Source: Bilabrum cf. latius
Taxonomy: Eukaryota
Length of the DNA: 64,000 bases
Reading direction: 5' to 3'
Assembly (NCBI GenBank): GCA_965178125.1
Contig: OZ237750.1
Location: forward strand, 496,001-560,000
Each line of letters starts with the position of its first letter. Within the stretch, counting starts at the first letter, position 1. Below, one piece after another: positions 9,834 to 59,451 of the stretch. The notes beneath the pieces are model-generated. The model saw only the letters and a list, made by a program, of their open reading frames with translations. It ran no database searches and was not told the DNA's origin. Both the position numbers and the translations under genes were made by a program.

Positions 9834-10027
9834 GCAATCCATAAGAAACGGCACCGAACCCCACTGAAGCTGCAAATACTTTTAATATCCCAATTCTGTG
9901 CTCAAATCCTGTTATGGATCAGGCAGGAGGACGGTGCACCGTCACGTCTCGGACTCATGCTCTACTCTTGTAGCGTGCAATAAAACAAATACAGATTGGG
10001 CCGCCGAACTGCAACAGCATTTTTGCC

Positions 10028-25076: not shown

Positions 25077-25211
25077 TCACCGCAAAAGATCCCCCTCGAC
25101 ACCTTGTTCTTCTGATTTGCCGGCGCTCGTATCTTTGCTTCTGTCCTCACCGGCGGCTTGAGACCGGCTTTTCATCTCGGTTTCGTCCCGGCGACTGCTC
25201 GTGTGCCCCTG

Positions 25212-25275
<64 letters not shown>

Positions 25276-32797: not shown

Positions 32798-35700
32798 TTA
32801 AACGCCTCCTCCACTTGCGGGGCCCGACTGCCCTTGCTCTTGCTGCAATGAGGACGAACCTCCTCCCCGCTCAGCACTAGCAGCCTGTTCCTACACGGCC
32901 TGCAAAGTATCGTTGCGCATTGGTGCCTGCTCTTCCCCAGCAGCAGTGACGTCCACATTGCTTCCGCTGACCATTCCCTCTGCCATCCCGGGGACAACCC
33001 CGCTGCGGCTACGACCTGCTACACCACCTCCTCCCTTGCTCTGTTGCTTCAATGGGACTCTCTCCCCATCTGCAGCTCTAACCCAGCCAGCACTGTGAAG
33101 TCCTGCAGACATACCGCCATGGCTGTGGATGGATGCGGCGAGCCTGCGAGACCTGAGCTTGCCTGCTTGTGCTGCCTTTGCGACGACCGCTGAGGCTTCC
33201 TTCGCCTCCCGTAGTCTCTTAGCTTCCCTCGTTGCAGCCTTCCGCCCTCTTGCGCCCGTGATCCGCATAGCATTCTCTTCAACCTCCCGGGACAGCCTCG
33301 CGTTATGTTCTTGACTTCCACGGTCGCTGTCACTTCCGCTGCCGCTGCTGCCGCTGCCACCGCCCTCTCGCCTCGTCGACCTGGCGCCTCGGCGCTTGCT
33401 GTCACGTCCAAACGTTGGATCCATTCTGCGGGACAAAGGCTCTGGTACGCCATGCCTCGAGCCGCCATGGAGTGACTAGGCCAGCCGACCGCCTTCTCTG
33501 TACCGCTTGGACCACCGCTGAGACTTGTTCCGTTCAGCCACCAGGGCATCCGCTGCTGACGCCATCACGCCCTTTCCGCGCGTCTACATGCGAACCCTTT
33601 TCTTGGGTGCACTTCGAGCGCTCTTGGCGGATTCAATTGGTGGCAGATGTGCCGCATTGAACTTTTGATCACTGATGGGAGCACGCTTCACCGTCTTGCT
33701 GCTGTCTTTGCCCCCGCACTGCTAGGATGTCACGTCCTCTTCGCCGTGACCAGAGCCTTCAGTGGAGCCTGTGCCAACCTCAACCTCATTCCGATTTCCG
33801 CTCGACCGTCCTGATCCAGAGGCGTGCTGCCCCCGGCCTGTAGCTCCAGGCAACAAAGTTACCTCGTCGTGATGATCTTTGGAACCAGTGCGTATTCCAC
33901 GCTTGCCCGCTTCAGAACTCTCGCTTGGGCCGGCATGGGCTGCCCCATCCCCGCCCAGACCAAGACTACTACCAACAACAGGTATGGCAGCACCACTGGC
34001 TCCAGACGCACTGTCGCCGGCAGCAGAAGATACGCTGCTATTCCCTCTCGCTGTTACCTGAACACCAACCGCTCCATCTATAGCTTGCCCTTGCAGCCCG
34101 CTGGTGGTGCTTTTGGTGCCGCCCTGCGATTCAGCGGGTGGCTGAATCTGCTGATACCGCTTGCTAAACTGTTGCTCCTATCGATGCTTCTTGTCCGCAA
34201 CTAAGGCACAATACTGCGCCCAAGTACCTTCGAATGATACTTGGCCTGCACTGGCCCCTACCGTCGGGTCGGGATGATCCTCCCACGCCTCACCGCGCAG
34301 CGGCGCAGGGCGCTGGGCGCGCTGCTCTAAGAGGGCGTCGTGCATGCCGCCGCCACCGAACCCAGGAATCTACCTCGGCATGTCCTGCAGCCGCTTCAAC
34401 GGCAGCGAAGCCACGCGCTGCCTTGCGAAGCTAATTGTTCCTCGCGCGGCGGAATTGTCCACGAAGGACTGCGCGGGAGGACTGAGAGTGCAGCTGTCTG
34501 CGTCAGCTAGAGGACTGGACAGGTCGAAGAGCGTCTTGAGGTCAAGGTCTGCAAAAAATGGGTGCCGCAGGAGCTCCAGTGCACCCCCAGCCCCGTACCT
34601 CTTGAGTGGATCCTCCTCGATGAGCCCGCAAATGAGGTCGATGAGCTCATGGGGAAGGTTCGTCGGGAGCCGGCGCCACATGATGTTTCTGTCTCGCGTG
34701 TTCCCAAGGACCTGCTCCGTGGTGCGTCCGTCCACTGGCAGCTTGCCAGTTGCCAGCCGCCAGGCAACTACGCCGAGCGCGTAGTAATCTGCAGTAAAGG
34801 TAGTCTAGCCTCCCTTCACGGTCTCGGGAGCCAGGTAGTGCGGAGATCCAGCAGCTCCAAGGGCGTATGTTCGACGGTTGACCAGGATTGGGGCTCCCAG
34901 GTCCTTCACTAGCTAAGGGAAAGTGAGTGCACTGCCAACCCGCTGCTTCCGAAGATTGGCAGCCACTGCATTGGCTGACTGGGCTGCATCACGGTGCAAT
35001 CTATTTGTCGATGGTGGAGGATGCAGCGGCCCCACAAAGGAAGAAGCGGCTGCTGTACGACTGCCAGTAGTGTGGCGAGGTCCGCCAGAAGAGCTGCTGG
35101 ACCCAGCAGCGATCGGAGCGACAGGTCCAGCAACGATACCGCCAGTGGCCACCACTGGATCCGTCGAGTTTCCTGGGGCCCGGTTTGGGAAGGGGTCCCC
35201 AGCACCACCATGCAATGCAATACCCGGCGTGAAAGGCTTCGATCTGTCCATCGTCGGCTCCTGATCCTCCGTCGCAGTGCCCACATTGACTCCGACTAAA
35301 GTGCTTCCACCCGAGCGAGCGGCTGACTGCCACGGTCTGCTTCTCCGGTTCGCAGTGTTGATCGTGCCAACGACCTCACCGCTCATGTTGGCAGTACCAT
35401 GGGACGCAGACGCTGTACCAGTTGGCAGATTTCCCACGGATGTGCCCCATTGGCCGTTTGGCCCGGCAGACGATGTGGCGTCCCGCCCCGGACCTTGTGG
35501 ACCCACTAGGGTCGGGCCGCTGTAGTCACCGTATTGATTGCCACGCTTCACAATATCCTTTGTGCCGGGGCTGCTCGTGTCCCTTGCTCCAATTGAACCG
35601 CCCTCGCTGTTGCCGTCGGATGCTCTGCGGCGCATACTGCTCCAACCGCCGCTACGAGGATTCTTGTCTGGCGAGGCGGTGTCCCGATCCGGATTCGGAC

Positions 35701-38700
35701 CCGGAACGATGTTTCCTGCCTGACCGAGTCCCTGGACACTGCCACTGTCAGAATTCTCTCCTCTAAATGACCTGCGCCGTGCACGTCTCGTTTGCTCGGC
35801 AACGGACGAGTCCCCGCTGCTCTCTCGGTTCTCGGAGCGCGAGTTGGATTCGATACCGTTGTTTTCGCGTGCACCTGATGCACGTCGCTGCTTCACGAAG
35901 GTTCCTGCGCGGAAAAGCGAACCCCCGGTGGAGCTTGCGCTGTCGCTGTCGTCGTCGCCAGCCACAACCGCTTCCAGGAGAACCTTCGCCTCTGCGTCCT
36001 GCGCATCCACAGCATGCATACCCCCCTTCGCCATGGCTGTCAAGAACGACTCAGGGCTGGCACCAGACGATTCATGAGCTAGATCCATCCCCAATTCCTG
36101 TCCATACCCGCTCTGAGTGGCCCCACCGTCTGTGCCTGCAGCAATGAGCGTCCCGGCAACAGTGTTGCCGCCCCCAGCTTTAGGCTAGTATGCTCCAGCA
36201 CCAGAGCCGCCAGCACCACCTTCTGAACTCCCTGTAGGGAAAAGCTGCCTTTCTACACCTGTGCCGTGCCCGAGCACAGGCTTCAAAGGGCTCTGCATCG
36301 GGGAAGGGGACGGCCGGGCACCCTCATTGGCTACGTGCTAAGCCAGAGGTCGTGCCCCTATCCTAGACAAGAGGCCCTGAGAGGCCGCGCGGTGAACAGC
36401 CTTGGGAACATCCGATGCACGGCGGCTGTCCTGACTGCCATTGCGGCGATTCCGTTGGGTCATGCTCCCTTTGCGTGACATGCTCCGCCGCATGCGTCTC
36501 GAACTACCGCTGCTCAAGGAACTGCTCTTGTTCTACTAGGACCCGCCCAGCATGCCCTGCGCCTTCCCCATAGACAACCGCTGCCACCGAGCCGACCGTC
36601 CGAATGCAGGAACAAGAACGGAGGAATAGAATCGAGCTGCGTGGGTCCGAAGTGGAAGTACCTGTACCCCCCTGTGGCTCCGGTCGATTTGGCGCTGCAT
36701 TTCTGCCGCGTCCTCGGGCGTCGCATCCTCGGTCAGCACAATGACCATCCTCGGGAGCATGAGGCCAAGCTCGAGCGGGGCGGCCATGCGCGACCCCATC
36801 GCTCCTTTGACGGGTTTGGGGCCTCCTTGGGCCCCCGAACCGTCATCTTTGCCCCCTGCATTCGCAATGTTCATGGTACCAAGCTCGAAGACCCGCGTCG
36901 CAGCGTCGCCCTCCTCTCCTCTCGCCGAGTCGCCCACAACACGGCGATGCCCCAGCCTCTTTGCAGGAGCCTACGGTGTGCCAAGACCTTTACCATTATC
37001 ATCTTGCTTCTTGTGGGTGACCTTGTTTTTCTTTTCTTGCTCTTCCTTCTCCTTTTCTTCCTTGCTTTTGGCTCCGCTGTCCTTCTTGTCAACCAAGTAC
37101 GCCTGGATTCGCTCACGGATTGTCTTTGCAATGGAGTCGAGCAATCCCAGCGCAACATCAACATCGGGCACATCGGTACACACGACAGCATCGAATATGT
37201 GGCCATCGTTCGTCACTGCACTCTGCAACTGCGAGGTACTCCACACCAGGGAAGGCACCACAGAGAACTCCTCGTCGATGACGTCGAAAGCGTCAAGCAT
37301 CCGCATTGGACGATGCTCGAAAGGCCCCAATAACACACCTTCTTTCCTCAGGTGCCACCGGTACAAATTGTCTACGGTGTTAAGCTCATCAAATCGCGGA
37401 TCCCACACATGCCGGGGCTCCTGCTCCCCGTTGCGGACCGCTGACTTCCTGAGCTGCAGGTAGTGTGAGGGCTCCACAACAAGAAGGGACTGCGGTGCAT
37501 CTGGTCTGGCCGCCATTGTCTCCATGATATGGTACCAATTCTAGTACGCTGATCTCCAGTCAGTGATCGGCGCACGTGGGATAGAAGACAAGGGCGGCTG
37601 AGGCGCCTGCCCATCCCCAAGCATTTGAGACGCGCTCACGCGGCGAGCCAGCAGCTTCTGCTTGGCAGTGGCGTTGCTGTCCGTAGGCAGACCAATAGAT
37701 ACGTTGGGATTAGCGCCTGTTACATCGCCAGATTGGCCAGGCAGCTCCCTGCGAAATGAGGTGGTGCGACGCGCCGCCGGGTGTTGCTGCTGCATGGCCT
37801 GGCTGGCTTGCTATAGTTGCTTCTGCTTGTCGTAAGGAGAGAGCGGCTTGGGCGGGCTACTATCAGCCCACATGCGCACACGCTCTCCTGCCTTTCGCAA
37901 GGACTCAACGTTATCTTCTTTGGCTAGTGTAAGGTCAAAGACGAGCATTGATGCACTCAGTAGCAGCTCTGCCCCTTCGCTTGGACCATCCCGCAGGCTA
38001 TGCCAGAGACCGGCCTCATTGCCGCGAGTCCCACTCAGCATGCCATAGCCGCGGCGTTCCAGGTGTGCGCCGTGGCTATCTTTCCCATGTCTCTACTGTT
38101 CTGGAACGCGCCCGTCAGACCCTTCCCTGTGTACCCGGCTATCTGCACGAGTCACCCTAGCAGCAGGCCCAGCGCGGCTTGTTGCAAGCACCCCAGCACC
38201 AGCAGCGCTACTACCACCAAAACTGGAACCACTGTGAGATAGCACGCCTCCGATTGGAGTATCTTGCGGAGACACGTGCCCTCTGTGAGCGGCCACAGCC
38301 CACGCGCCAGCTGCAGTGCTCTGCCTGGCCTGTTCCCACTGCTGCCGTGCCTGTACGTCGGGGTTTGGACCGAGTTCATCCAATCGTCGATTCGCCTAGG
38401 AGTGAGACAGGCATGGACTCACGACGCGCATGTGGCGCAGCATGGGGTGGACCATTCGATCTAGCCGATGCGAGTCAGCCAGCGGTCTTCTTAAGTTGCG
38501 CAAGCGGGTCCTTGTGGCTTCCATGGCGTCGCGGTCGGTTCTGGTCAGGCTGCGAGCAGCAGCACCACTGCTGTGACCGTGACGGTCACCGCCTCTCTGA
38601 CTTTCTCTGGCTGGCTCTCCCTGTGAGTGGCTTGCAGTGAGAGCCTGCGCCGATACGCCGAAGTAGTCTCTCGGCTTTGGGCCACCCCGGGTGCCTGCTT

Positions 38701-41700
38701 CCCTGATCGGGTCAAGCACGACAGATAGACCAAAGTCGATTAGCTTGCAATGGCCCGTTGCCTGTTGGCTGACCATGATATTTCCAGGCTTGATGTCTCT
38801 GTGCAGAATGCCACACCGATGACATGCTCCTACTGCTGCTATAAGCTACGCCATCACCACTTTGAGCGCGCGCGGCTTCAGCCGACGGCCGCCCTGCACG
38901 ACTGTACCAAGTGTGGAGCCTTCAATGAATTCAGTGATCAATGCAATACGATCTGGCATGGCAATTGCCAATCCTAGCTGCATGACGCCGGCATGTTTGC
39001 CTAGTGTACTCAGCGAGGTCGTCTCACCGCGAGTTTCATCACGGAGCGTCTGCTCACGCTGGAACTCCTTCAGTGCAGCATATGCCCCACTCCGGGTGTC
39101 AATGACTTGAAATACGCGCCCAAACGCCCCCGCGCCAAGTAGTCGAAGACGCTTTAGCTGCGCCAAACAAACCCCAGCCCAATGTGGGCCTGGCTTCCCA
39201 CTCGTGTCTTTTCGTTTGCCTCGAATACTACCCCATGCACGGCCCAACTGCATGTTGCGGAAACTGCCTCTAGATTGCATTGATTCAGATCGACTTCGAG
39301 TGGTATCCCTGAGCTGATCCACCACTACCTACGCGGGTTCTGGTTTTGAAGAGTACGTTGATTGCTTGTCTGCGGACCCGCCACTGTTGAGATTCGTTCC
39401 ATGGGTAGGTGGCGGCCGTAGAGCTCCGATCTCCATAGCGCTAGAGTCTGTCGCTCTGTCTACTCTCAGAAGCGAATCCTCGCCTGGAGCTTCTCCTTGT
39501 TGCTAAATAAAGGCAACGTGCAGTTCGCCACCCAATGCTACCTGCATAGCATCATGCACATGGTCTCTGTCAATCGATTGCCTGGCGACGGGTTGCATAG
39601 GGGCCGCAGGAGGCTGGCCCATCCTTGCATCCAAGACCTCCACAGACATGCGGACATGGCCAGAAGAAGAGTCTCCGCCCCTGGAACTTGGACCCGTGGA
39701 TCCGGGTGCATGCACCGAATCTGAGGCTCGCGACACAGAGTCAGCCACTGAAGCCGATGCTACCCCACGACTGCGGCTCCTGGGAGACTTGGATCCAGCG
39801 CCAGTAGATCCCGATCGGCTGTCTGACGTGCGATCATCAGCAATGGACTCGCCTCTACGTCTCATTTGTCCCTCGGGCGAGAATGGCGACTACATGCGTT
39901 CCCGGGCGCGGTCGCGGGCGTTGTGTCTCGCACCATTGGCGGCGGCGCTGGCTTTCCGCGCTTCTTCAGGAGACACGCCGAGAGCAATCAAGTAGAGATC
40001 GTGCAATATCCTTGTGGAGTAGGCGCCTGCTCGACCCCGAATATTGAGTCGAATCGACCGCATGAGTCGCTGTTGCTACGCAAACGCACGTTTTACAGTG
40101 TCAGCAGCAGCTGTGGCCTTTGTAGCCGCTGTACCGCCCTGGCTTGAGGGGGTGCTTTTGGACCCTGCCTTGCCACCGCTGTCGCTGAAATTGCCTGCCC
40201 CGTGCGATGCACCGGGCAACTCATCCTCTCGTTCGCCTGCATTGAACGGATCACCCATCAACTGGTCAACATTTTGCACCACGGAAACACCACCCGCGCC
40301 ATGCTTTGCACCGGCTTGGCCTTGCTCATCACCACCCCCTGCTTCTCCTAGAGAGCTATCATCGCTGCTTGAGTTCACATCATCAGATGGCATGATGCGA
40401 AGGTTTTGCAAAGCTGCCATTGGCCCCGTCTGGATCGAATTGCTGCCCGCACCATCGTCACCCTGTCCCAATCGGTCGCCTTCAGCGAGGTCAGCAGCTC
40501 TTGCTGCTGCATCTGCCGCATCAGCCCCGCTCCGGTACTGCCGTCCCACGGAATGAGGCGCCTGCATTCCACCTTGTCCAGTAGAAGGGCCAGACCAGCT
40601 GGGCCCAAGCCTATCCTTGTTGGCTTCTAGCAGTCTCTTCAAGGCCTATTGGCTCCATTGTGGGGACACCTCGATGGGGAACAACTCCTTGAGGGCTTGT
40701 CGCGCCCAGCCCGTTTCCTTCCGAGCTTCTCGAGACAGCGCAACCACCGACTGGTCTGGCCGTACGGCTGTACCAGCAGCAGCTGCGAGTGCCGAGGCAT
40801 TCCGCAGAGTGGTCCCGAAAGCATCCCACGACTGTCCATCGGCCCCGGCAGTGCCAAGCACTACGGACCCAAAGTGTACTGCAGCAGACAGGGCAAGCCT
40901 TGCTTTGAGTCTCCTTTCCATGAGCTGGATGCGACCCATCGCCGTGGCAATGGAGGTGAGGGCGTGTAGAACTGCGCTGTACTGATGGCGCTGCTGCTCG
41001 GCCTCCTGCACACCAACCTGTCCGTGTCTTCGCATCATGGCTTGCAGCATCTACACCCTTGTGCTCTTGGGCTGTTCATGATCGAAGAACACGGTCATCT
41101 AGAAGCTGTGCACGTGGACGCGGTATCCACGGCGAGATGATGGGTGCTTGAACCGCCTGCTACTAGACGATGACAGCGGAGCATTGGCGACTCGGTTCAC
41201 CACCCTTCTTGCATGGCGCCTTCCCGTCTACTATCCAAACTATGACCCGCTGCCGTGTCGGCTTTGGCTGTGACTTCGACCCGTGTCGCTGTCAGAGTCA
41301 GATACGGCGGCATACAGCTCTGAGCCAAGTGCTTGCGCCTGAGCTGTCGTTCCAACGTACTCCTCGTCACATGCCTGCTCCAACACTGCAGCGACAGCCC
41401 GTGTCAGCCGAAAGAGATCTACTGCTCCCATGATGGAATCTAGCATCTGGACGACTCGAAATCGCACTGAGAGGACCGCAACTTGCCTTCGCGGCGCAAG
41501 AACCACCCTGCGTTGCACAGCTAGCAGCTACATCTCGCGACGTAGCTGCCTCGCCTGCATGACCATCTGACCAGAGGCCACATGCTGGGCTTGCTGCCTG
41601 CCACCAGTCACCCCAACCACCACTGAGGCCCCAATGCTCCCATGCTAGGCGCCTCTGCCGTTGGAAGCTTGCCGCTGCGCAGCACCCAGCCCGTTGTAAA

Positions 41701-47700: not shown

Positions 47701-48475
47701 CAGAGACTAGCTGTACCCTCAGCAATATTAGCGTAACCACCAACCAAGCCAGCCCGCAGAGCACCCCGACAGCCTGGGCAAGGCTAGGGCTCTCCCGAAA
47801 CAGCGGTCCAGTCGACGGGACAGGATCACTGTAGGACTATATTGGCACTGGAATGTCGGAAGAGTTCGATATGATAGTCTAGTTGAGTCCTGCAGCGGCG
47901 GTTGACTGTGGGCTTGGCTCGAATCGGCCCCAGTCCATGCGCTCCTCGTACATGACTCTGTCGAACAAGAGCAAGCTCTGGCGGTGGCGAAACGTGTACG
48001 GTAACGCTAATAACCACAGAATTAGCACCGGCATAGCAATTTGTAATGCTATCGGTGGCAAAGAGTACTCCAAAGGTCCGGTGAGTACGGCCGTCTGGTT
48101 GCGACAGCAAGCAGTTCCGATTCGAACGTCCCTCTGAGCAATACCTCCATCATCTGCAATGAAAAAACAGTTTACAATTATTTCATTCAATGCGCTTCAT
48201 GATGAGCGCTCTATCGGGGATATACAAGTGCTGACACGATGTCGGCTGGGTCTCTCACCAATGAGCTCGGCGTACACACGCTGCATCCAAATGGCCATAG
48301 CGTGCGGATCTTCCCAGACAGGCATGCGAGGAGCGTGACCTATATCATCCGCTTGTTCGTCAACAGATGATACCTGCACAGAGCGGCTGCCGGTTTGAGT
48401 GCCTCGTTGGTCGCGTCGCATAAGACGCCGGAGAAGCTCGACCCCGTTTGTTCTGGTAGCGGCAGATGCTTCCAT
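32798..48475 (-). CDS. Giant ~5,190-aa protein: 2 x (~6 TM + degenerate class III nucleotidyl cyclase) fused to a split AGC-type Ser/Thr kinase; exons 48259-48475 and 32798-48153
   Basis: More than 20 ORFs share one frame, and every gap I checked contains only TAG (~50 by hand count). Intron 48154-48258 removes a TGA. Kinase motifs LGAGAFGRV, AALK, HRDIKPGN, DFG, GSPHYLAPE, DYYALG and HPFF. Cyclase-like GVAQG...CGFL...WSVFGD and VHFGSVVLG...WDAFGTTLRNASAL. Ends TAA. Start codon less certain. Confidence 0.8.
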
Positions 48476-48891
48476 AATACACAAGTATTTAGCTCGAGAC
48501 AATCTTGAGAAAAAATTGGCACTGAGAGAGTTGGGAGGTCAATCTGTTTGTTCGCGTGTGGGCGAGTAATTATTCTTAGCTTCATCTTCATTGATTGAAA
48601 CGGTCGCTAAAAAAACAAAGCACTCAGATGCACAGCAGGGTGCTTCCGTTGCGTTCCACATGAGTATACGACGTTGTAGAGCACATGGTAACTTACATCG
48701 GGGCCAGCAGCAAGTGAAAGCGCAGCGCACGCAGCCGACTTTTGCAACTGCCGCAGCCGGTTGCAACCAGTAGGATGTTGAACTTTCAAGAAGAAGATTA
48801 AAACCAGTAGATCGCCGCCGCGGATCTCGTGTTGCACGTGCGGGCCTTGGGAAGCATCCGACTCACACCTGTCTCTCAAGCAGAGTGCTCG

Positions 48892-51800
48892 TCACAGCTC
48901 CTGCTCCTGCTCTTCGGCCTGCTGCGCCTTGCGGAAATCGAAGGTATCTCCTTCCGTGTCCGCCCACTCTGTCCCCGCCATGTAGCTCTTGTAGAACGGG
49001 AGCGAATCGGTGTGCTCTGGCGGCAGCAGCTTTAGCACGAAGCGATACCTCCTTACTTGGCTGGTGTACTCCACAATGTAAAGCTGGTAGTATCTGAAGT
49101 ACGCCACCAGAGCCACCAGTAGAGCCACGGCCATTCCAACGGATAGCAGCGTCACGTAGTCATCCGCCCAACGCTCAAACAGGGCAGTGTACAGTCGCGG
49201 AATCCTGCGAAGGACCTAGAACATGACACTTCCGTACAGTGGCTGTGTAACCTGCCTCGTGCGCAGCTCAGCGACGTAGGCCTTGAACGCCTCGTCGATT
49301 CCGTCCGTACCAAAGTAAAGCTTTTCCAGGGTTTCTGAGGTGCTGATCCCCTGCACGTCCTCTTCGTCGCACCCAAACACAACGCACTGCTGCAGCCTCT
49401 CCGCTTCGTCCGCAAGCCGGTCTACCGCCTGGCCAGGGCGTTGCAGCTCTTCCGCGGTCGTGTAGTTGAACCATGTCGGAACCGAGGCGGAGGGCTCTCC
49501 GACCTCCTCTGGGAACCTGCCATACGTGACAGTGCCTGCTGCCCGAGTAGAAAAGCTCAAAAACTCGAAGCTGGACTTTGCCAAGGTCGTGACCCAGCTG
49601 CCCATGATGTCAAACTGGTTGATTATCGTGTTGGCCTGCACGTATCGCACTGGGAGCATGACAGCCACAGCAACCACGGCAGCCCACAGAACGAAGCTGA
49701 TTCCTGCAGTCCAGTTCCTGGCTTCCACGAAAGTAGCATCGGAGTGCGCTTTGTCCTGCATCTTCTTTATGAGCCATTCGATGGGATCTTTCTTGACTTT
49801 CTCCAGGCCGCTCAGGTCATCCTCGTCCACGGCCCACCGTGACATGTGCACCGTTTGCTCGCCGTCCTCCTGACTTGCGCCTGATGCTCCGCTAGCACCA
49901 CTGGCTCCAGTAAGATCACTTGCCTCGCTTGGACCGCCGGGAAGAAGCTTTGGAGCAGAAGCACCGACCATGATTGCATCTGGTGTGCCTCCACTGCCAC
50001 AATCCGCAGACCCGTTGGCAACATACCCGTCAGATGGCTGCACCTGGGCTGGATTGGAGCCAGAGCGGCGCGTGGCTGCTCTCGTCCTCCTGCCTCTTCT
50101 TTGCTCACGCTTTACCTACTTGCCATACTGCCGCACGATAGAGTCAGATAGGCTGCCGCGCCGCTGCTTGCCGACTCCGAGCAGGTCTGACACCCTCTGG
50201 GCCGAGGCATCCCGAACAATGATGCTGCTCGGATTCGTATTGGCATCGCTGACGCTGCTGCCGCTGGAGCTTTCCCCTTCGCTGGCTCCTGCACCGGTCT
50301 TTGCCATGTCCTCGGCATCAGTGACGGGGTCGCTCTTGGAGTTCTCCAGACGGACCGCCAAGCTGGCAAAGCCCTCCAGCGGGACAGAGTCGAGCAAGTA
50401 GTATCCCGCCATATACTCGAAATGGGCGGCCTGCAGCCCCCACACAAGAGTGCATGGTACGACAGTGAAGACGAGAACAAGAATGGAGCTGGTCGCCGTG
50501 ATGATGTAGAAGAAACTCTGGTCAGAATTCCGCACTCTCCGGTCGTACACATTCGTCACGGATCCAAGCGCATCGGCGATTTGCTATGTATTGTACACGA
50601 AGCTGATCCAGTTCCCGACGTAGTCCTCAAATTCTGGCAAGTTCTCAACGGCTGGCGCCACGCATGCTCTGTCATTGTCCTCAAGAACGGTTCTAAGGTA
50701 CTGGCTGGAGCGGTTGACAAGCGCGGCCCCGGCTAGCCAGTGGATCTCTTCGAACACAGGTGCCCTCCACTGAGACACCGGAAAGACAGACGACGTGTTT
50801 CGAAGCAGCTCACGGGCATCGTAAATGATCTGCTGCGTGAAGTCATCAGTGAGCACCTCACGATCAAAGGCTTTGATGGTGCGGCCACCAGTGACCTGGT
50901 CTACCTCGACGCGAAGATCGAACGCGGTAGAGCGCTTTCCCTTTGACAAGCTATCGGCCAGCCTCCCACGCGGACAACCCGACAAGCTGCCGTCAATGTA
51001 GTCACCAAAGTATCCGACAGTGTCGTGCGGTGCATCGCAGAATACCAGCCTGTGCTGGATGAACGCAAGCTCGCCGAGAGCATCCCTGAAGTCTAGCAAC
51101 TCATCAGGCCCAAGCTGTCCTGGAGCCGCGGATGGATCCGTGCCGCAGCCACTGACACGCTCAAGATGTGCAAGGTACGACCCAAGGAGCCACACGACCA
51201 CCTCTCTTCGGTCACTCGACGCAACCTTGAGCAAGCTTCGTCGGAGGTCCTGCAACTCCGTCAGGTTGACGATCAGCGGAATGGACAGCACTGCAACGAG
51301 CATTAGAAGAGCTGAAGCCAGCACACACTTCATGCGAGGAATGCCTGGGTACTCCCGCGGCCTGGCTGCCTCGCTGATGCCCACCATACTAGCGAGCACA
51401 GACTTCGGGCGCAGCTTCACAGGATGCTGCGCAATTATAGCCCTTTTCATCGCAGTAGAACCAGGCGACTTGATCGTTGCTAGACCATCGCCCTGGGTAC
51501 TTTCCTGTCCCTGAAACCGCAAGGAGTGGGTCACAGAGCTGGCATCAGCTGATGCAGCATTAGTGCGCAAGCTGGACTTGAGGGGCTTTACATTGAGCCT
51601 CGCTTCGGTGGCTGCAGCCGGAAGGAGGTGCATGTCATGCGAATCAGTCGATATCCGCTTCATGGTTGCAGTGGCAGGTGCCAGCTAGCTGTCTCCGGTC
51701 ACGGGTGTAGGTGAAGTGTCGGTCTCCCCAGTCCCCTCGGTGCGACCAGAAGACACAGATCCCGAGACACTTGCTCGCGCCCTTCCAGCGGAATCTTTGC

Positions 51801-54800
51801 CACTTTCAACGGGCACGTTGATGTCTAGCTATGGTTTGGGTGCCTCTATACCAGAATCAGGATCAGCGTCGGCACCAGCGGCAGCAGCACCGTCGGAGCT
51901 AGCTTCAGTCCGTCCACCAAACTGCTTGGTCTCACCCTTTTGCGTAGACCCTCCGTATGCGGTCTTTGGCTGATCTGAAGCATTTTGTTTTGAAGCACCA
52001 GCACTGTGATGGAGGTTTTGTGGTGACTGGCTCGCGCCGATGTGGGTGGCATCCACCGAGGCAGTTCCTCGTGCCGCTTTGGCACCTGCGTCTCTTTGAG
52101 GCCCACCCTTTTGCTTCGAATCTTCGAGTGCAGGGCTTTGCATGGATGGCGTGATCGGGGGCAACTTGGATTTCGGTGGTGGACTGCTGGATCCGGAGGT
52201 CCCGGTTGTGGCAGCGGTTGGCTGTGCGACGGACATTTGGCCTAGTTCCATTGCTAGGATCTCTCTCTCCGTCGGCTTCCTCTCGAGTGTCTTTTGAGCG
52301 GCTTCTTCAACAGCATCGGACTTGGCCTCGCCATCATCTTTGCCGCTGGATTTGATGGACGACCTGCGGCGCTTCTTCATTGATCGGGCGGCCACTGCAT
52401 CAGCAGAGCCCGTCGCCTAGCTAGCCTGCTAGCCGCTGTCGTCAGCAAGCAGCGGCTTGGTGCTGTCCATCGAATCAGCATCATCATTGATACCGACTTG
52501 ATCACCAGTTCCCTTGCCAGCTGCATCATCCTCGTCACTGCCACCGTCACTGCCTTGCAACTTGGGAGCAAGCGGGATCTGTTGCACGATGGTGGCTGCC
52601 CTACTGGCCGCAGCCTCCTCCTCCCTGGCATCTGCGAGCTCCAAGTACCATCGAGACCCCTTCGAGTCACCCCGCACCTAGTCCAGAAACTGACTGTAGG
52701 CTCGCAGCACCTGCGTGCTGTAGCTGTGGTTCTCAAGCAGAGCCACGAACGACCTCGAGGCGCTCTCCTCCGCGCTGCCGATTCTCGCGATTGCGTCGCG
52801 TACCTCCCGCATGTCTGCGTTGCCCCTCGTCATCATGGATGCAAACGACTATAGCTCTTCCATCGCGATACGATGGTAATGCTGCGCGCTCCTCAGCGAT
52901 TTGGACAGGTCAAGGTATCTCACGGTGCCGACACCGTTAGCCAGCTGCTGCCTCCTCCTCTCGAACAGGTACCGAAAAAAGCAGTACCGAATGTCTAGCA
53001 TGTTGATCTTCGCCGCTGCGGAAGCAGACATGCGCACTGGTAGTGCCTGGCCAAAGAAATGATGCACGTTTAGCATAGACAGCCAGAAGAGGCCGTTCTC
53101 CTGCAGATGCCTAGCTGCGTGCGAGTATAGCCACTGCATGACGAGCCCCCTCTTCTTCTCTCTTCGCCAGCGCTTCCGCGATTCCTCTGCGATCTGAACC
53201 ACGGTGCTGGTCTCAATTCCGCTCGCTGCCACGCTGCCAGCCTCGGACGCTTGCTGTTGTTGTGAGAGCAGCTCATCGTCGTCGTCATCATCCTCGTCGC
53301 TCTCGTTGAAGCCGGCGTCCTCATCGTGGTTCGCGGTCAGGGTGATGCCCAGCAGGGACAGCAGCGAGAACTGCCTGTTGCTCTGGTCTGTGCTGCGCTC
53401 CAATCCGACGAAGGCGGAATCCGTGCGGCGCATAACGTGCCGCACCATGATGTCTACATCAGATTCCCCGGCCGCGTCGAGCCCCAGCCGGGACACCAAA
53501 CCGGCTTCGGCGTGCCTGCCTCCGGTCGTGATGATGTGGTACATCTTCGAAACCTTTGGCATCCGGCTTGTCACTAGAAACCACCGTCTGTAGGCAAGAA
53601 GCCATCCAAGGTAAGCCGCTGGTCCCGCCCCCACCAAAAGCAGGTCTCCGGACGCGTCTAGTGACAGACCCAGCACTCGGCACGTCTCACAGATGGATGC
53701 CCACAGGAAGAGAGCAAACGCGCCGCATCGGAATTGATTTGAGGCCTGGCTGTTGTACGGGAACATCAGCAGGATCTGGTATAGCATGATAGTTGCAATG
53801 ATCGGCTTCGCCAGCACGAACAGTGGGTCCACCACGCGCTGCACATGGTCGAGGAGAATGAGGACCAGCTTGAGCACCAGCACCAGGACCTCGGATCTCC
53901 CATGCGTCATGCCGAAGGAGCCCTCCACATCCACTGCGATCACGGCCGTGACGAACGAGACAGCTCCAAATAGGACAATGAGGATCCAGGCAGCAATGAC
54001 CACCCCAACGTTGATTGGCGTCCCTTCGAACGCCGCGTACTCAACTACACCGCCCCTTGGAAACGGGATGGCAAAGTTTGACAGCAGTTCCACTATTGGC
54101 ATATACAAAAAGGTCACCTGTGCACAGGGGGAATCGGATTGAGCTGTGGGTGAGCTTTGCTATGATTTTCATCGCCGCCTAGTAGCAGTGCGTGTAGCAT
54201 GCTCAACCACGTCGCCAAGTATTTTAAAGACGATCTTCTGCCAATTTATTGCTGCTAGTCATTGAGTGCACTCAAGGCGCGAGGTCGTTCTTATCTTACG
54301 AGTGAAACGATGAAAACCCGGAGGAAATCCAGTGCTCGTGATGGCGACGTGGTTGAGCATTCTAAACGCACTGCCACATATGTCAAGGTGCCCAAGGCGA
54401 TGAAAATCATCGCAAAGCACACCCACAGCTCAATCCGTTTCGCTTCATGCCCGACTGATTGGAATACTGTCGCCATGTACTCGCTCGCCTGCTGCAGGAT
54501 TCCGACCAAGCTACCGGGGGGAAACTGGAACAAATCTTCAGAGAAGTTTGTGGCTAGAAGCTACAAAGGTTCCTGTGAAAAATCTCGAAGAAGTAGCGGA
54601 GGAACGGAGGGTCGGATATAAAAACCATGGTTCAGAGCACTCGGAACAGTCGGTCGCGTATTGCGCGTATTGCTCACCACCAAAAACGCAATTGCGAGCA
54701 GGTACGCTTTCACGCTATTCTATGACATCATTGAATATATCACCAGAAAAATTGCTGCAGGGTTGCTTTGTCATGGCTCATTGAAGCAGTAGTACGTGGC

Positions 54801-54945
54801 CTTTGCTAGCGGCACATGCGGGCCAACTTTGGCTTCGCTCACCTCGCTCAACTGATGCAAGCTTCCCAGAGCCAAGGGTACTTTGAAAGGCCTAGTTGCC
54901 TGAGCTTGATGTAAACGCGCTTCCATTCGTGCGTCTTTTCGCCAT
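48892..54945 (-). CDS. TmcB/TmcC (tiny macrocysts)-like multi-pass membrane protein, ~1,892 aa; probable introns 54755-54842, 54573-54677 and 54118-54299
   Basis: N-terminal TM bundle (IFLVIYSM, EPL*LL, FLYMPI, PYNSQASNQFR), LDIRY.FF, and A..F..LL..H..S..VLRAY..FL..VR.D TPR-like motif, followed by three further TM pairs. Only TAG in frame; ends TGA. The 5' exons are inferred from splice signals. Confidence 0.75.
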
Positions 54946-55088
54946 CTCGCAAACAGTGTTCCAACAGAAGAACACTCAAGCTATAACCGGAACTAGGCTG
55001 TCGCAACCGGAGGATGCCAATGGTCGCAGGCAACACACTGATCGGCCAATGAAATTCCTACGCATACCCATCCAAAAATCAAGTCATT

Positions 55089-56717
55089 TCACCCCGGCTC
55101 CTTCCCGACCCCAGCCCCACTCCCTCCAGCCGCACCCCCCGTCGCCGCCCCAGCACTAGCACCCGCCTCTCCCTCTTCTCCGCCCTGCTTCCAGACCCTA
55201 CAAGTGTTATCCTTGGACCCCGTGATGATGGTGTCCCCCGAGTAGTTGAAGGTACACGAAAAGATTTCGTCCGAGTGCCCCTCGAGCACCTACAGACACT
55301 CTCCCGTGTCTGAGTCCCACACCCTCGCCGAGTGGTCAGAGGAAGCAGTCAGGATGCGAGTGCCCATTGGGTTAAACGCAACCTTTGATATCTCGCCCTC
55401 ATGCCCCGCTAGGATATTCGAGCAGGCGTGCGTGGCAGCATTGTAGATCCTGGCAGTCCCGTCCCCCGAGGCAGTCACCACCTTCCGCCCCGTGCTGTCG
55501 AATGCGACGTCAAGGACCTCGTCATGGTGGCCACGAAGAGTCGCCTCGCACTTGCCCGTGCCCACGTCCCATAGCTTGGCGGTCTGATCGATGGAGCCGC
55601 TTACCACCTTGTTGCCCTCAAAGTTGAAGCAAGTAGCGGAAATCTCGCTCTGGTGGCCCGTCAGGACGTGCGCGGCGCCGCCCGTGCGGACGTCCCAAAG
55701 CCTCACGGTCTTGTCAAAGCTGGCCGTGACGAGCAGCGAGCCGGAATTATTGAACTGCAGTGCCACCGTCTCGGCGGTGTGCCCTTTCAGCGTGTGCAGC
55801 TCCCTGCCAGTCACCACGTCCCACACCTTGGCAGTGTGGTCCATCGATCCGCTGGCCACAAACGAGCCTGTCGGGTCGAACTGGATGCAAACTATCTCTT
55901 CTTCGTGGCCTTTGAACGTGTGCTTGCACTCGCCCGTCTCTGTGCTCCAAAGCTTCGCCGTTTTGTCGAAGGATCCAGTCACGATGAGGTCCCCGAACGG
56001 ATTGTTGAACGAAATGGCGTACACAACGTTGCGATGACCTTCCAAGACATGAACTTCGTCACCAGTAGCCGTGTCCCACACCTTGCAGGTGCGATCATAC
56101 GATCCAGTGATGAACCGGCTGCCGCTCTTGTTGAACGCGCAGTTCGTCAGTGGCAGAATGTGCGCCTTTAAGGATCGGAAAAGGCGGTAAGAGCGATCTG
56201 ATGGATCTTCCAGCTTGCTTGCCATCTGCAACAAATGATGGAATGGAACTTGCACGATAGCGTGGTTGTGCTGAGATTAGTTGCCCTGCATAGCTGCCAC
56301 GCTCGAATCGAGATTCTCACCCTGCGCAGCAACTTTTCCAATTGCGGGCGCCTAGCTTCTGACACAAGAGGCTCTCGGAGAACTATATCCTATGCAAGTT
56401 TTGAAACGTCCGTACTGCGGATATAAGTATCTTCATGAGAGAAACGCGCCTTCACGTGCAACGTATCGGAAAATCCTTGGCATGTTATGCACTTTAAAGC
56501 TTCTTACGTCGGCGATAGATGCAACAAATCCAATGTTCTGGTACCTTTGGTCCCATTTTTTCTCTCAAACTCCAAGATAAGCCCTGCAAGTTGAACCAAG
56601 ACGGAAAGGCAAGAATAACAAAATCAAATACAAGCTCACTCCCAGCCATTCGTGGGAAAGAATTGCATCGAGCTCACCTGGGGGATAATAACGAACTAGA
56701 AACCTTCTCAATTTCAT
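55089..56717 (-). CDS. DAW1: Dynein assembly factor with WD repeats 1 (ODA16/WDR69), 448 aa; exons 56678-56717, 56508-56583, 56321-56414 and 55089-56225
   Basis: [14 protein letters not shown] start; [38 protein letters not shown] and eight WD40 repeats; [14 protein letters not shown] with TAG at 55290-55292. Three GT-AG introns of 93-95 bp. Ends TGA. Confidence 0.95.
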
Positions 56718-56835
56718 AATTCTGACTCTGCGACTGCAAAGGGGTTCTCTTTACGGCCGCGAGCCGAATCGATCGTAAAAAGTACACGTTACCGGCATTG
56801 ATCGGTCCGTTGCACGGAGCAGTTTATTGGACGCC

Positions 56836-59451
56836 ATGGCTGAAGATGCTCGCCTACATGCCATGAAATCAATGCATCAGGAGAAAACAAAGTCTTTGAT
56901 GCGATCAATATCCCTGCTTCAGAAAGAAGTGCGCTCATTGAGAGCACAAAGCAAGGATCACCGCAGAAGCGCTCAACTACAAGCCCTGCAGCAAGAAATC
57001 AGAAGATAGGAACTTGTATCCGAGGTTTTGAAAGTGTTTGTAGAAAGAAGCTGCGACCTAACACGAGAGCAAGTGGATGACATGGTAATGAAGAAAACAA
57101 TCGGTGCCCCGCTTCGGTTTACCCCAACGAGCAGGGAAGAGCTCGCCATGGAAATCGTCGCGCTCCGGCGAAAAGTCAAACAAATAGAATCTAAGAATGC
57201 CAAGTTGAAGCTCAGAGGTCGCAAGGGTGCGCACAAGGGCCCAGAGGCGAAATCACCTGATGAAGCCACGGATCGCCACACGTCTGTGACGCTGCCATCG
57301 CTGCCGTAGGCCTTGCCTGGCAATGAAATGGCTGATGCAGGTTATGGTTACTCCGTGGACTATAGAGCTAGGGCTGGATCATCCAGTAGCAGGCCCTCCA
57401 CAGCAGGTGCGGCAAGTGCGAGACCGGCACGGGCTTAGATTGCGAGCACAGCTGCGCTTCGGCGAGTGGTCGAGAAACTGGAAGCCGACCTAGACGGCTA
57501 GAAGCAAGCTGTACAGTCACTGCAGCGTGAGCTAGCGGCATCGCAGGAAGAAGCCGAGCGCCTGGCCCTATTCGAAGACAAGGCGAGGCAGCTCGCCACA
57601 AAGTACTCCCACGCCAAGGACGCGCTCAGGGCTATGCGAGACGAAGTCGCGGCAGAGGCTAGGCGCAGGGAACAAGAGGCGTCCAGGGCCCGAGAGGCAA
57701 AGGGAGAAGCCCTGGAAGCCCGCGCCAAGCTGGAGGCGTACAGGGGGGAATCTGACAAGGGGAGGACACAGCGGGCCATGGAGACAGCCAAGGCGTCGAG
57801 GGACAAAGTCGAGCTCATGACGTCGCTGCAGGAGGCGAGGGACGCCGCGCGAGATGCGATGGAGCGCGCCGAGGCGGTGAGAAGGAAGGCGCAGGCGGAG
57901 TCGAGGGCTAGAGGGGAGGCCGAGCAGGCGGCCAAAGAGGCCAGGCAGCAGGCCGAACAGGCTGCGGCCGACGCCAAGCGCGCGTAGAGGGAGAGCGCAG
58001 ACGCCTCGACGCACCACAGGACCCTGATGTCGGAGAGAGACGAGGCCCGCACAGCCCTCACTCACGCCCGGGAGGCCCTTGCGCAGGCCAAGGAGGAGCT
58101 TAGGACCACAAGAGAGGAGGTCAGGGAACAAAGCGACAAGGCCGCCACCGCCCTCGCCGGGCAGGCCAGGGTATCGAGAGAGGCGGCAGAGCAGCGAGCC
58201 CGCGCGGAGGCTCTCGAGCGAGACACGGAGGCCCGGGGGGAGGAGCAGCAGAGAGCCAGGGAACAGGAACAGAAGTCCAGGGAACAAATCGCCCGGCTGG
58301 AAGGCCAGCTGGAGGACGCGAGGGAGGATGCGAGGCGGGCCACGGAGCAGAGCCATGCAAGAGCGACCAAGCTCGAGCAGCTCCTCGAGAAGGTACAGGC
58401 CGCCAAGGAAGAGCAGCAGCGAGCAGAGGCACTGTCCGAGAAACGGCTGGCTGCGTGCGCTGCCGTGGCGTCAGTCCTGCGAGACCTTGGGTCGCGTGCC
58501 AGAGCGGTGAAGAATGCATGCGCCTAGCGGGCCGGTGCTGCCGCTTCAACCACCGGCGGAGCTGCTGGTCCGGACGGCAGTGGTGCGATGCAGATCGGCG
58601 GCGAGGCAGTGGCGAGGCTTTAGTCTGCCGCTGTGGACGCCGGCACGTGTGCACAGCTGCAGGAAGGTGCAGAGAGCGTGGATCAGGCACTGGCGGCATG
58701 TGGAGCGCTGCTCAAACAGCTGGATTCCGGCAGCGCAAGCACAGCTGCTCCGGAGATATCATCGGTTGAAGGCAGTGGGGTGGGCGATGGGAGTACTAAA
58801 GGTCGGGCTGACCTAGAGAGTGCGAGCGGGACCAGCAGCAGGTCAGAATCGGGTGCTGCCGCCCGTGATGGTGATGACAATGACGAGGCCAGCGACCAGG
58901 GCAATGGCCCTGATGATGTGGAGTCTAGAGAAGGGCACGAGGGCGGGTAGGAGGTAGCTGATCCTTCAGCTGCCTAGGCCATGCCACGCGAAGGCCAAGA
59001 GCAAGCCCAAGGGCCATAGGCAGGGGCATAGATCTAGGCAGGGGCAGTCGATCTACCTGGCGGGCATGATCACGGGATAGGAGCAGCAGAAGATGCGGAT
59101 AGAGAGGCAGATTCTGTCAGTCCAAAAGAAGATCAAGTAGACGGCACAGACACCTCTGGCAATGCTGCAGATTCGCAAGAACTTGCGGCTGCTGGCAGGA
59201 GCGGGATCGCCGCTGTCGGGCAGGAGGACAAGGACCGGGGTGGCGGCGAACAAGACTCGGCGAGCGGCGGTGATTCGAAGGAAGAACTTCAACTGCATTC
59301 AGGTACACAAGACAATGGTGCGCGAAAAGCGCATTCCGGAGTTGCCTCTGCGGCAGACGGGCAGGGGGATGCTGCCGCAGGTCCACTGGCAGCTCTAGAG
59401 TCTGGTGCTGGTGCTGACGAGCTGAGCGATTCGGATGAAGATTCGAGCTAA
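56836..59451 (+). CDS. Coiled-coil protein with acidic disordered tail, 871 aa
   Basis: ORFs 56827..57009, 57028..57309, 57634..57987, 58027..58527 and 58633..58950 are one frame joined by TAG. Ends TAA at 59449-59451. Head-to-head with DAW1. Confidence 0.8.

What the first reader, a model, noticed from the sequence alone, without database searches (positions are those of the whole stretch)
32798..59451. UAA and UAG are decoupled: UAA appears to remain a stop
Seen: across roughly 18,000 hand-read codons of intact genes there is no in-frame TAA, although CAA is common. Thirteen genes end in TGA and two in TAA (32798-32800 minus strand; 59449-59451), and none needs TAG as a stop. Known: eukaryotic UAR reassignments usually move UAA and UAG together (table 6). 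Split meanings are rare, reported for example in Iotanema spirale, an uncultured rhizarian and some ciliates. Inference: eRF1 here must discriminate UAG from UAA/UGA, and a CUA-anticodon tRNA without a UUA partner should exist. Caveat: only two TAA ends, and one has TGA two codons later.
Basis: partly seen in the sequence, partly recalled or inferred. Interest (0 to 1): 0.82.

Follow-up and report, generated by a model that had tools for sequence, protein, structure and literature searches.

The report
UAG reads glutamine; UAA still stops
This stretch of a protist's nuclear genome uses TAG as a glutamine codon while TAA and TGA still end genes, a rare genetic code already known from a few other protists and here seen in what looks like a new lineage.

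Summary
In 16 exon/ORF models there are 17,535 in-frame codons with 129 TAG, 0 TAA and 0 TGA. CAA is common (198, against 539 CAG). Of 14 complete gene ends, 12 are TGA and 2 are TAA (32798-32800 minus; 59449-59451 plus). A third apparent TAA end (61284-61286) lies inside a GTAAGA intron donor.

TAG means glutamine. It aligns with conserved Q in DAW1, USP39-like and TPR homologues. In four orthologous gene pairs it pairs with Q in 24 of 61 sites, the same rate as CAR-Gln itself.

New evidence comes from L001, a syntenic 11.5-kb metagenome contig of a relative (53-75% amino-acid identity). It has the same code. Two of its four genes end in TAA exactly where the window's orthologues end in TGA.

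Spliced transcript contigs keep the TAGs unchanged.

The code equals NCBI table 15. The predicted tRNA-Gln(CUA) and altered eRF1 could not be tested, because no genome is held.

The closest named homologues are from Cafeteria (a stramenopile). My searches found no stramenopile nuclear code change in print.

The parts
32798..48034 (-). G10, a 5,078-codon ORF (protein kinase domain split by a long insert) with 50 in-frame TAG and no TAA or TGA. It ends in TAA at 32800-32798. The next in-frame stops are TAG at +14 and TGA at +41 codons.
   Evidence: coding score drops after the TAA (-0.12 against 0.16 in the body)
56836..59451 (+). G13, an 871-codon coiled-coil ORF with 12 in-frame TAG. It ends in TAA at 59449-59451, followed by CGA TGA.
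   Evidence: contig record 12 of run X5 covers 57389-59487 with 0 other letters, so it keeps 10 TAGs and the TAA, and it ends 36 nt after the TAA
17100..19514 (+). G5, USP39-like (zf-UBP + UCH). It has TAGs at codons 18, 47 (17238-17240), 91 (17370-17372), 338 (18111-18113) and 621. Its TGA stop at 19512-19514 aligns with a TAA stop in the L001 orthologue.
12013..16170 (-). G4, a coiled-coil protein with 15 TAG. Its TGA stop at 12015-12013 aligns with a TAA stop in the L001 orthologue.
55089..56225 (-). G12, the last exon of a DAW1 (WD40 dynein assembly factor) gene, ending in TGA. Its single TAG at 55292-55290 aligns with a conserved Gln. Three further introns lie upstream (56226-56320, 56415-56507, 56583-56676).
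62627..64000 (+). G15, an exon of a TPR protein that runs off the window. Its TAGs at 63197-63199 and 63296-63298 align with Q in the 5 closest eukaryotic homologues. Intron 62534-62625 lies upstream.
61283..61416 (+). A 134-nt GT..AG intron of the MBOAT gene (G14). The apparent in-frame TAA at 61284-61286 is part of the GTAAGA donor and is not a stop. The gene continues at 61417-61996 and ends in TGA.
9914..11854 (+). G3, an M28 peptidase with 3 TAG and a TGA stop. Its L001 orthologue (75% identity) also ends in TGA at the same position.
19710..21566 (-). G6, with 2 TAG and a TGA stop. Its L001 orthologue (66% identity) ends in TGA.
4029..9842 (-). G2, a 1,937-codon ORF with 17 TAG and a TGA stop.
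27155..31948 (+). G9, RSN1/PHM7 (OSCA/TMEM63-like), with 10 TAG, all upstream of the conserved 7TM domain. TGA stop.
48892..54102 (-). G11, a protein with a TmcB-type TPR, 9 TAG and a TGA stop.
22886..24739 (+). G7, DNAAF3-like (DUF4471), with no TAG in this exon and a TGA stop.
2..1723 (+). G1, a low-complexity ORF open at its 5' end, with 2 TAG. Its TGA stop is followed directly by TAA.
25077..25988 (-). G8, an RS/RD-rich ORF with 1 TAG and a TGA stop. This is the least certain gene model.

Best explanation
The window is nuclear DNA of a GC-rich (about 58%), intron-poor flagellated protist. Its genetic code has UAG fully reassigned to glutamine, while UAA and UGA both remain terminators. This is formally NCBI table 15.

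Shown here:
- TAG is a frequent sense codon, about 15% of all Gln codons.
- It sits at Gln positions.
- It is present in mature transcripts.
- TAA is absent from reading frames and closes genes.
- At least one fairly distant relative shares the code.

Inferred from established knowledge of decoding:
- UAG is read by a tRNA-Gln with anticodon CUA, which cannot pair with UAA.
- No UUA-anticodon suppressor exists.
- eRF1 has lost or weakened recognition of G at the third stop-codon position but keeps UAA and UGA.
For: Census: 17,535 in-frame codons, TAG 129, TAA 0, TGA 0, CAA 198, CAG 539. P = 9e-19 that TAA is a Gln codon used like CAA; about 62 TAA expected at the six-frame background rate.

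TAG = Gln:
- The G12 TAG aligns with Q in 47 of 60 DAW1 homologues (7 D, 2 L, 4 gaps).
- G5 TAG47 and TAG91 are Q in the 81%-identical relative P0121, where most others have T. TAG338 is Q in 52 of 80 homologues.
- Both G15 TAGs are Q in 5 of 5 closest eukaryotic homologues.
- In four orthologue pairs, TAG pairs with Q at 24 of 61 sites (39.3%), against 40.3% for CAR-Gln with Gln and 1-7% for other residues. The likelihood is best for Q, with the next residue (K) 47.7 nats worse.

TAA = stop:
- 2 of 14 window gene ends are TAA.
- In L001, 2 of 4 gene ends are TAA, at the aligned positions of the window's TGA stops...LLLQD|TGA against ...LLLQD|TAA, and ...PPLR|TGA against ...PSLK|TAA. Downstream sequence is unrelated. 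The next TGA after the L001 G5' TAA is +202 codons away.
- The frame-0 coding score falls to about 0 or below after all stops, including both TAA stops.

TAG is not a stop:
- 0 of 18 gene ends are at TAG.
- All TAGs in genes with a Pfam domain lie upstream of or within the domains.
- L001 G4' has TAGs 23 and 18 codons before its stop, followed by a motif conserved in the window.

Transcripts: runs X5, X6 and X7 hold contigs with GT..AG joints that are absent from DNA run X1, and these contigs show no other letters over the TAGs.

The public protein P0121 ends exactly at an in-frame TAG of L001. This shows that standard-code gene callers truncate these genes.

Table 15 has TAG = Q with TAA and TGA as stops.
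Against: - The two TAA ends in the window itself have no homologue support: the C-termini of G10 and G13 are unconserved. G13 has TGA two codons later.
- The 30 codons between G10's last TAG and its TAA show no frame-0 coding signal (-0.03). The tails of G1 and G4 are also weak (0.02, 0.04). For G10 and G1, composition alone cannot exclude termination at a TAG.
- The sample is small: 18 gene ends from 75.5 kb of two organisms. A minority class of TAG-terminated genes elsewhere in the genome cannot be excluded.
- No tRNA, eRF1, proteomic or ribosome-profiling evidence was available.
- The RNA status of X5-X7 is the tool's guess, and it labels X5 'probably DNA'. I infer transcripts from the spliced joints only.
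Confidence: 0.88

Rival explanations
1. Both UAR codons mean glutamine (table 6 type), TGA is the only stop, and TAA is simply rare because the genome is GC-rich.
For: The genome has about 58% GC and TAA is the rarest stop triplet in all six frames. G13's TAA is followed by TGA two codons later, and L001 G4' likewise.
Against: CAA, GAA and AAA make up 27-33% of their two-fold NNR pairs, so about 49 in-frame TAA would be expected against 0 seen; P = 9e-19. In L001 G5' the TAA sits at the aligned position of the window's TGA, and the next TGA is 202 codons on, inside the convergent neighbour. The only two TAAs that could be in frame in the window lie at the very ends of ORFs.
Confidence: 0.02
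2. The code is context-dependent: TAG is Gln inside genes but also terminates some genes near their 3' ends, as described for Condylostoma and Blastocrithidia.
For: G10's last TAG is only 30 codons before its TAA, and that tail has no coding signal. Only 18 gene ends were examined.
Against: 0 of 18 ends need TAG. All four orthologue pairs end together at TGA or TAA, not at TAG. L001 G4' reads through TAGs 23 and 18 codons before its stop into a conserved motif. In most genes the tail after the last TAG scores as coding in frame 0.
Confidence: 0.06
3. TAA is unassigned or avoided rather than a working terminator, and genes that seem to end in TAA really end at the next TGA.
For: TGA follows two codons later in G13 and in L001 G4'.
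Against: L001 G5' would need 202 more codons and G10 would need 41 more, without any coding signal. Swaps between TGA and TAA at the same aligned position in two orthologue pairs are what interchangeable stop codons produce.
Confidence: 0.03
4. It is an artefact: the TAGs are assembly errors, pseudogene lesions, or are edited or spliced out of the mRNA.
For: None found. One model TAG (G14 model codon 48) did turn out to lie in an intron, and another (codon 15) lies in a stretch whose frame the intron makes uncertain.
Against: DNA run X1 and the transcript contigs of X5-X7 agree with the window letter for letter over the TAGs they cover. TAGs occur at 0.74% of codons in every long gene and at Gln positions. 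An independent relative shows the same pattern.
Confidence: 0.01

Closest known systems
Iotanema spirale (Fornicata) nuclear code: UAG = Gln, with UAA and UGA as stops (PMC5304391, passages read; PMC11687900, discussion passages read)
   Same: Same assignment: UAG to Gln only, with UAA kept as a terminator. The same mechanistic prediction applies: tRNA-Gln(CUA) and an eRF1 altered for third-position G.
   Different: The lineage is unrelated: here the closest named homologues are stramenopile, chiefly Cafeteria. In the passages read, UAA is called the dominant stop in Iotanema; here TGA dominates (14 of 18 ends). Iotanema was described from a transcriptome; here genomic synteny between two species shows stop-codon swaps directly.
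Ciliates with UAG-only reassignment to Gln: Protocruzia tuzeti and two phyllopharyngean lineages; NCBI table 15 'Blepharisma' (PMC11687900, passages read)
   Same: Formally the same code table (TAG = Q; TAA and TGA stop).
   Different: This is not a ciliate-like genome: a 64-kb multi-gene contig with 58% GC and GT-AG introns of 88-172 nt. That ciliate genomes are typically AT-rich or made of gene-sized chromosomes is recalled, not tested here.
UAR = Gln codes (table 6): many ciliates, hexamitid diplomonads, Streblomastix, ulvophytes, Amoeboaphelidium (as listed in PMC11687900 and PMC5304391, passages read)
   Same: UAG is read as Gln.
   Different: TAA is not a sense codon here: 0 of 17,535 in-frame codons in the window, 0 of 3,411 in L001, and it terminates genes.
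Other split-UAR codes: rhizarian exLh (UAG = Leu), Scotinosphaera (UAG = Ser), an oligohymenophorean ciliate (UAA = Lys, UAG = Glu) (PMC11687900 passages; PMC10553269 abstract only)
   Same: UAG and UAA have different meanings.
   Different: The amino acid here is Gln; Leu, Ser and Glu fit far worse.
Context-dependent stop/sense codes (Condylostoma, Blastocrithidia; PMC4967479 abstract only, PMC5304391 figure-legend passage)
   Same: Standard stop codons occur in frame.
   Different: No sign here that TAG also terminates. TGA and TAA are never in frame.

Membership tests
UAG-only-to-Gln nuclear code (NCBI table 15 type) | In-frame UAG in conserved genes at positions where homologues have Gln | tested here: met
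   Q in 47 of 60. Q in relative P0121 at two sites and in 52 of 80 at a third. Q in 5 of 5 closest homologues at two sites. 24 of 61 orthologue sites, equal to the self-rate of CAR-Gln.
UAG-only-to-Gln nuclear code (NCBI table 15 type) | UAA never in frame and used as a terminator | tested here: met
   0 of 17,535 and 0 of 3,411 in-frame codons. 4 of 18 gene ends are TAA, two of them at the aligned position of an orthologue's TGA.
UAG-only-to-Gln nuclear code (NCBI table 15 type) | UGA kept as a terminator and not in frame | tested here: met
   0 in-frame TGA; 14 of 18 gene ends are TGA.
UAG-only-to-Gln nuclear code (NCBI table 15 type) | A tRNA-Gln with anticodon CUA is present and none with UUA | not testable with these tools
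   No genome is held. No tRNA in the window or L001 and no Rfam match.
UAG-only-to-Gln nuclear code (NCBI table 15 type) | eRF1 N-domain changes that weaken UAG recognition (GTS, NIKS, YxCxxxF region) | not testable with these tools
   eRF1 is not in the window or L001, and no eRF1 sequence from a tool was available to search with. The motifs are those named in PMC5304391.
UAR = Gln code (table 6) | UAA in frame at Gln positions alongside UAG | tested here: not met
   0 TAA against about 49 expected from the CAA/CAG ratio; P = 9e-19.
Context-dependent stop/sense codes | The same codon both encodes an amino acid and terminates genes | tested here: not met
   0 of 18 ends are at TAG. TAGs 18 and 23 codons before a stop are read through into conserved sequence. 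The sample is small, so this is 'not met' for the loci seen only.
Stramenopile (bicosoecid-related) origin of the contig | Closest named homologues are stramenopile | tested here: inconclusive
   Cafeteria roenbergensis is the best named hit for G7 (39%) and G15 (57%). A Pedinella sequence sits in a top USP39 cluster. The best DAW1 hits are a cryptophyte, animals and oomycetes at 61-65%. No rRNA and no multi-gene phylogeny were available.

The most novel reading that the evidence does not exclude
This is an unreported, independent origin of the 'UAG = Gln, UAA and UGA = stop' code in a clade of heterotrophic stramenopile flagellates related to bicosoecids. It would be the first nuclear code change in stramenopiles. 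At least two species share it, and they are divergent enough (53-75% protein identity) that stop codons have drifted between TGA and TAA. That shows a stable, long-lived decoupling of UAG from UAA, not a transitional state.
Probability: 0.45. Interest if true: 0.75.

Novelty: new member of a known kind. Interest (0 to 1): 0.62.

Why it matters
Nuclear codes in which UAG and UAA differ are few: Iotanema, one rhizarian, Scotinosphaera and some ciliates, in the passages I read. Each new independent case tests the idea that eRF1 constraints couple the two codons.

This one comes with genomic DNA, transcripts in public runs and a syntenic relative. The predicted tRNA-Gln(CUA) and the eRF1 substitutions could therefore be read straight from the assembly and compared between two species.

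There is also a practical point. Standard-code gene callers break these genes at every TAG. The public protein P0121 stops exactly at an in-frame TAG. Any annotation of this genome and of its metagenomic relatives needs table 15.

Tried and rejected
- Whole-genome look-up: none is held. A genome-wide stop census, a tRNA inventory and eRF1 inspection were therefore impossible.
- tRNA and Rfam scans of the window and L001 found nothing.
- Earlier findings of this scan: none.
- The look-up of sequencing runs listed no holder on record as RNA. X5-X7 are RNA by the tool's guess only. Parts of the laid stretch without cover are not used as evidence.
- The contig joints 55525 to 58596 and 48805 to 53272 have short sides (20-24 letters) and non-intron ends. 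I treat them as chimeric or repeat artefacts.
The TAG-free G7 gave only sub-threshold methyltransferase-like hits (best 0.81), useless for function or taxonomy.
- Cluster look-ups named few of the closest homologues; most are unnamed metagenome proteins.
- RNA editing of TAG was rejected, because the transcript contigs are identical to the DNA.
- A third TAA end (61284-61286) was rejected as intronic.
- An aphelid (Amoeboaphelidium) origin was considered because of the 'algae metagenome' row and its reported UAR = Gln code. I dropped it because the best named homologues are stramenopile. It is not formally excluded.
- Literature searches found no stramenopile or bicosoecid nuclear code change. 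One search (table-15 terms) returned mostly irrelevant papers.
- I did not open supplementary files. The eRF1 alignment in the additional files of PMC5304391 could bear on which substitutions to expect.
- A first MAFFT run timed out and was repeated on 60 of the 120 listed homologues.


Full report
WHAT THE WINDOW IS

The window is 64 kb at 55-64% GC. Under the standard code it has no stop-to-stop ORF longer than 617 codons among the 29 of at least 250 codons. When TAG is read through, ORFs of 600 to 5,078 codons appear on both strands.

Pfam identifies ordinary eukaryotic genes:
- an M28 peptidase (G3);
- a zf-UBP + UCH protein like USP39 (G5);
- DNAAF3/DUF4471 (G7);
- an RSN1/PHM7 channel (G9);
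- a protein kinase inside a giant ORF (G10);
- a protein with a TmcB-type TPR (G11);
- DAW1, a WD40 dynein assembly factor (G12);
- an MBOAT acyltransferase (G14).

No whole genome is held for the window. It contains no tRNA and no Rfam family.

CHECKING THE OBSERVATION

The two TAA codons are at the stated coordinates. They close G10 (32800-32798, minus strand) and G13 (59449-59451). G10's is followed by TAG at +14 and TGA at +41 codons.

My first census over 15 ORF models gave 17,426 in-frame codons with 131 TAG, 0 TAA and 0 TGA, against 200 CAA and 536 CAG.

Laying public runs on window:44001-64000 showed GT..AG joints in X5, X6 and X7 that are absent from DNA run X1. The joints reveal:
- three introns upstream of my G12 model;
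- an 88-nt intron inside my G14 model;
- a 134-nt intron at 61283-61416;
- a 92-nt intron that contained my G15 start codon.

The apparent TAA end of G14 (61284-61286) is part of the GTAAGA donor of the 134-nt intron. The MBOAT domain continues in the next exon and ends in TGA.

With these three models corrected, the census is 17,535 codons: 129 TAG, 0 TAA, 0 TGA, 198 CAA, 539 CAG. Gene ends are 12 TGA and 2 TAA among 14 complete ends.

TAA is not rare for compositional reasons. It makes up 0.309% of codons in the other five frames of the same genes and 0.79% of trinucleotide positions in non-genic DNA. About 62 in-frame TAA would be expected at the six-frame background rate. If TAA were used among TAR as CAA is among CAR, the chance of 131 TAG and 0 TAA is 9e-19.

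WHAT TAG MEANS

- The single TAG of DAW1 aligns with Q in 47 of the 60 best homologues that I aligned, out of 120 listed (7 D, 2 L, 4 gaps).
- An exhaustive search with G5 found P0121, an 81%-identical 243-residue fragment from an unnamed metagenome. P0121 has Q at two of the window's TAG positions where most eukaryotes have T. A third TAG is Q in 52 of the 80 homologues aligned, out of 150 listed. Two more TAGs fall in unalignable regions.
- Both TAGs of the G15 exon are Q in the 5 closest eukaryotic homologues; the bacterial homologues differ there.

A SYNTENIC RELATIVE

The search for related loci with P0121 returned one locus, L001 (11,514 bp, 57.5% GC). It carries the orthologues of window genes G3, G4, G5 and G6 in the same order and orientation. 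Protein identities are 75, 53, 68 and 66%.

L001 has 43 in-frame TAG and no TAA or TGA in 3,411 codons.

Across the four pairs there are 61 sites where one species has TAG and the other an ordinary codon. The partner is Gln at 24 of them (39.3%). CAR-encoded Gln is matched by Gln at 40.3%, and no other residue is matched by Gln at more than 7%. A simple likelihood over the observed substitution table puts Q first and K second, 47.7 nats worse. Two further sites have TAG in both species; I left these out of that count.

P0121 ends exactly where L001 has an in-frame TAG, so it is a standard-code truncation.

TAA AS A STOP, TESTED BY ORTHOLOGY

This is the main new evidence.
- The window's G5 ends ...LLLQD TGA and L001's orthologue ends ...LLLQD TAA.
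- The window's G4 ends ...PPLR TGA and L001's ends ...PSLK TAA.

In both pairs the proteins align to their last residue, and the sequence after the stop is unrelated. If TAA were not a stop in L001 G5', translation would have to run 202 more codons to the next TGA, into the convergent neighbouring gene. The other two pairs end in TGA in both species.

Taken together, the 18 gene ends are 14 TGA, 4 TAA and 0 TAG.

In the window, a leave-one-gene-out codon score is 0.16-0.30 per codon in all gene bodies except the low-complexity G1 (0.07). It is between -0.17 and 0.15 in the 40 codons after the stops: -0.12 after G10's TAA and -0.07 after G13's. An X5 contig covering G13 ends 36 nt after the TAA. 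That is only a weak hint, because contig ends are unreliable.

IS TAG EVER A STOP?

- Every TAG in a gene with a recognised domain lies upstream of or inside the domain.
- The tails after the last TAG score as coding in frame 0 in most genes.
- L001 G4' has TAGs 23 and 18 codons before its stop, followed by a motif conserved in the window. Closeness to the 3' end therefore does not make TAG a terminator.

Against this, the 30-codon tail of G10 and the tails of G1 and G4 have weak or no coding signal. G4's tail is covered by the orthologue alignment, but those of G10 and G1 are not. With 18 ends, a minority class of TAG-terminated genes elsewhere cannot be excluded.

TRANSCRIPTS

Run X5 is labelled by the tool 'RNA? 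(probably DNA)', and X6 and X7 'RNA?'. All three hold contigs that skip GT..AG introns. Five joints are seen in all three runs and three more in X5 only. None is seen in X1.

Those contigs show no other letters where they cover the window. This includes the G12 TAG (records 11, 16 and 24) and ten G13 TAGs plus the TAA (record 12). So the TAGs are in mature mRNA and are not edited.

MECHANISM

Shown: the code table.

Inferred, following the reasoning set out for Iotanema and the rhizarian in PMC5304391 (passages read):
- Only a CUA anticodon reads UAG while ignoring UAA, so a tRNA-Gln(CUA) without a UUA partner is expected.
- eRF1 must have lost efficient recognition of UAG.

Efficient decoding is required. 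G10 alone has 50 TAGs, so even 95% read-through per site would give under 8% full-length product (my arithmetic). None of this could be tested without the genome.

COMPARISON WITH WHAT IS KNOWN

The assignment is identical to NCBI table 15. It also matches the UAG-only-to-Gln codes reported for Iotanema spirale, Protocruzia tuzeti and two phyllopharyngean ciliate lineages (PMC11687900 discussion passages; PMC5304391 passages). It is not table 6, and it shows no sign of context dependence.

LINEAGE

- The best named homologues are Cafeteria roenbergensis for G7 (39% identity; an unnamed metagenome protein reaches 61%) and for G15 (57%).
- A Pedinella sequence sits in one of the top USP39 clusters.
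- The best DAW1 hits are a cryptophyte, animals and oomycetes at 61-65%.

I read this as a probable stramenopile, possibly near bicosoecids, at roughly 60% confidence. There is no rRNA and no multi-gene tree.

In the passages I read, the Cafeteria genome preprint (10.1101/751586) mentions a non-standard code only for the mitochondrion. It gives 70% GC.

My literature searches turned up no nuclear code change in stramenopiles. This is the basis for 'new member of a known kind'. The library lacks most subscription journals, and supplements were not opened.

VERDICT

The kind of code is already known. The lineage appears to be new for it.

Noticed in passing
window 44001-64000 (introns 48154-48258, 56226-56320, 56415-56507, 56583-56676, 59661-59832, 60162-60249, 61283-61416, 62534-62625): The spliceosomal introns are short (88-172 nt), have GT..AG ends, and cluster at the 5' ends of genes. 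There are three within about 450 nt upstream of the DAW1 exon, and the long downstream exons have none.
   Followed up: partly
window 32798-48034 (-): G10 is a 5,078-codon ORF. The N-lobe of its protein kinase domain (about residues 2962-3108) and the APE-containing C-lobe (about residue 4400) are separated by roughly 1,300 low-complexity residues. The N-terminal 2,600 residues hold several hydrophobic segments and match no Pfam family.
   Followed up: partly
window 62627-64000 (+): The G15 TPR protein has close homologues only in Cafeteria and a few unnamed eukaryotic sequences (57-69% identity). The next best hits are alphaproteobacterial and other bacterial TPR proteins at 30-38%. This may be an old bacterial gene transfer into this protist lineage.
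   Followed up: no
window 18700-18830 (within G5) and about 24560-24600 (within G7): Long in-frame (Ala-Gly)n tracts encoded by GCAGGA-type microsatellites sit inside otherwise conserved genes (the USP39-like and DNAAF3-like ones).
   Followed up: no
window 48772-48807 and 52940-52974: The contigs of DNA run X1 break at these two places. Short contigs of 31-35 nt there have 2-3 times the usual depth, which suggests a short repeated element or an assembly-graph branch.
   Followed up: no
L001 7740-8471: The public database protein P0121 is a standard-code truncation of the USP39-like gene at an in-frame TAG. Relatives of this organism in metagenome protein catalogues are probably fragmented in the same way throughout.
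   Followed up: yes
window 22375-22977 (+): Homologues of G7 carry a DUF4470 domain in front of DUF4471. The window's G7 exon lacks it, and an upstream ORF on the same strand may be the missing exon. The G7 model is therefore probably incomplete at its 5' end.
   Followed up: no
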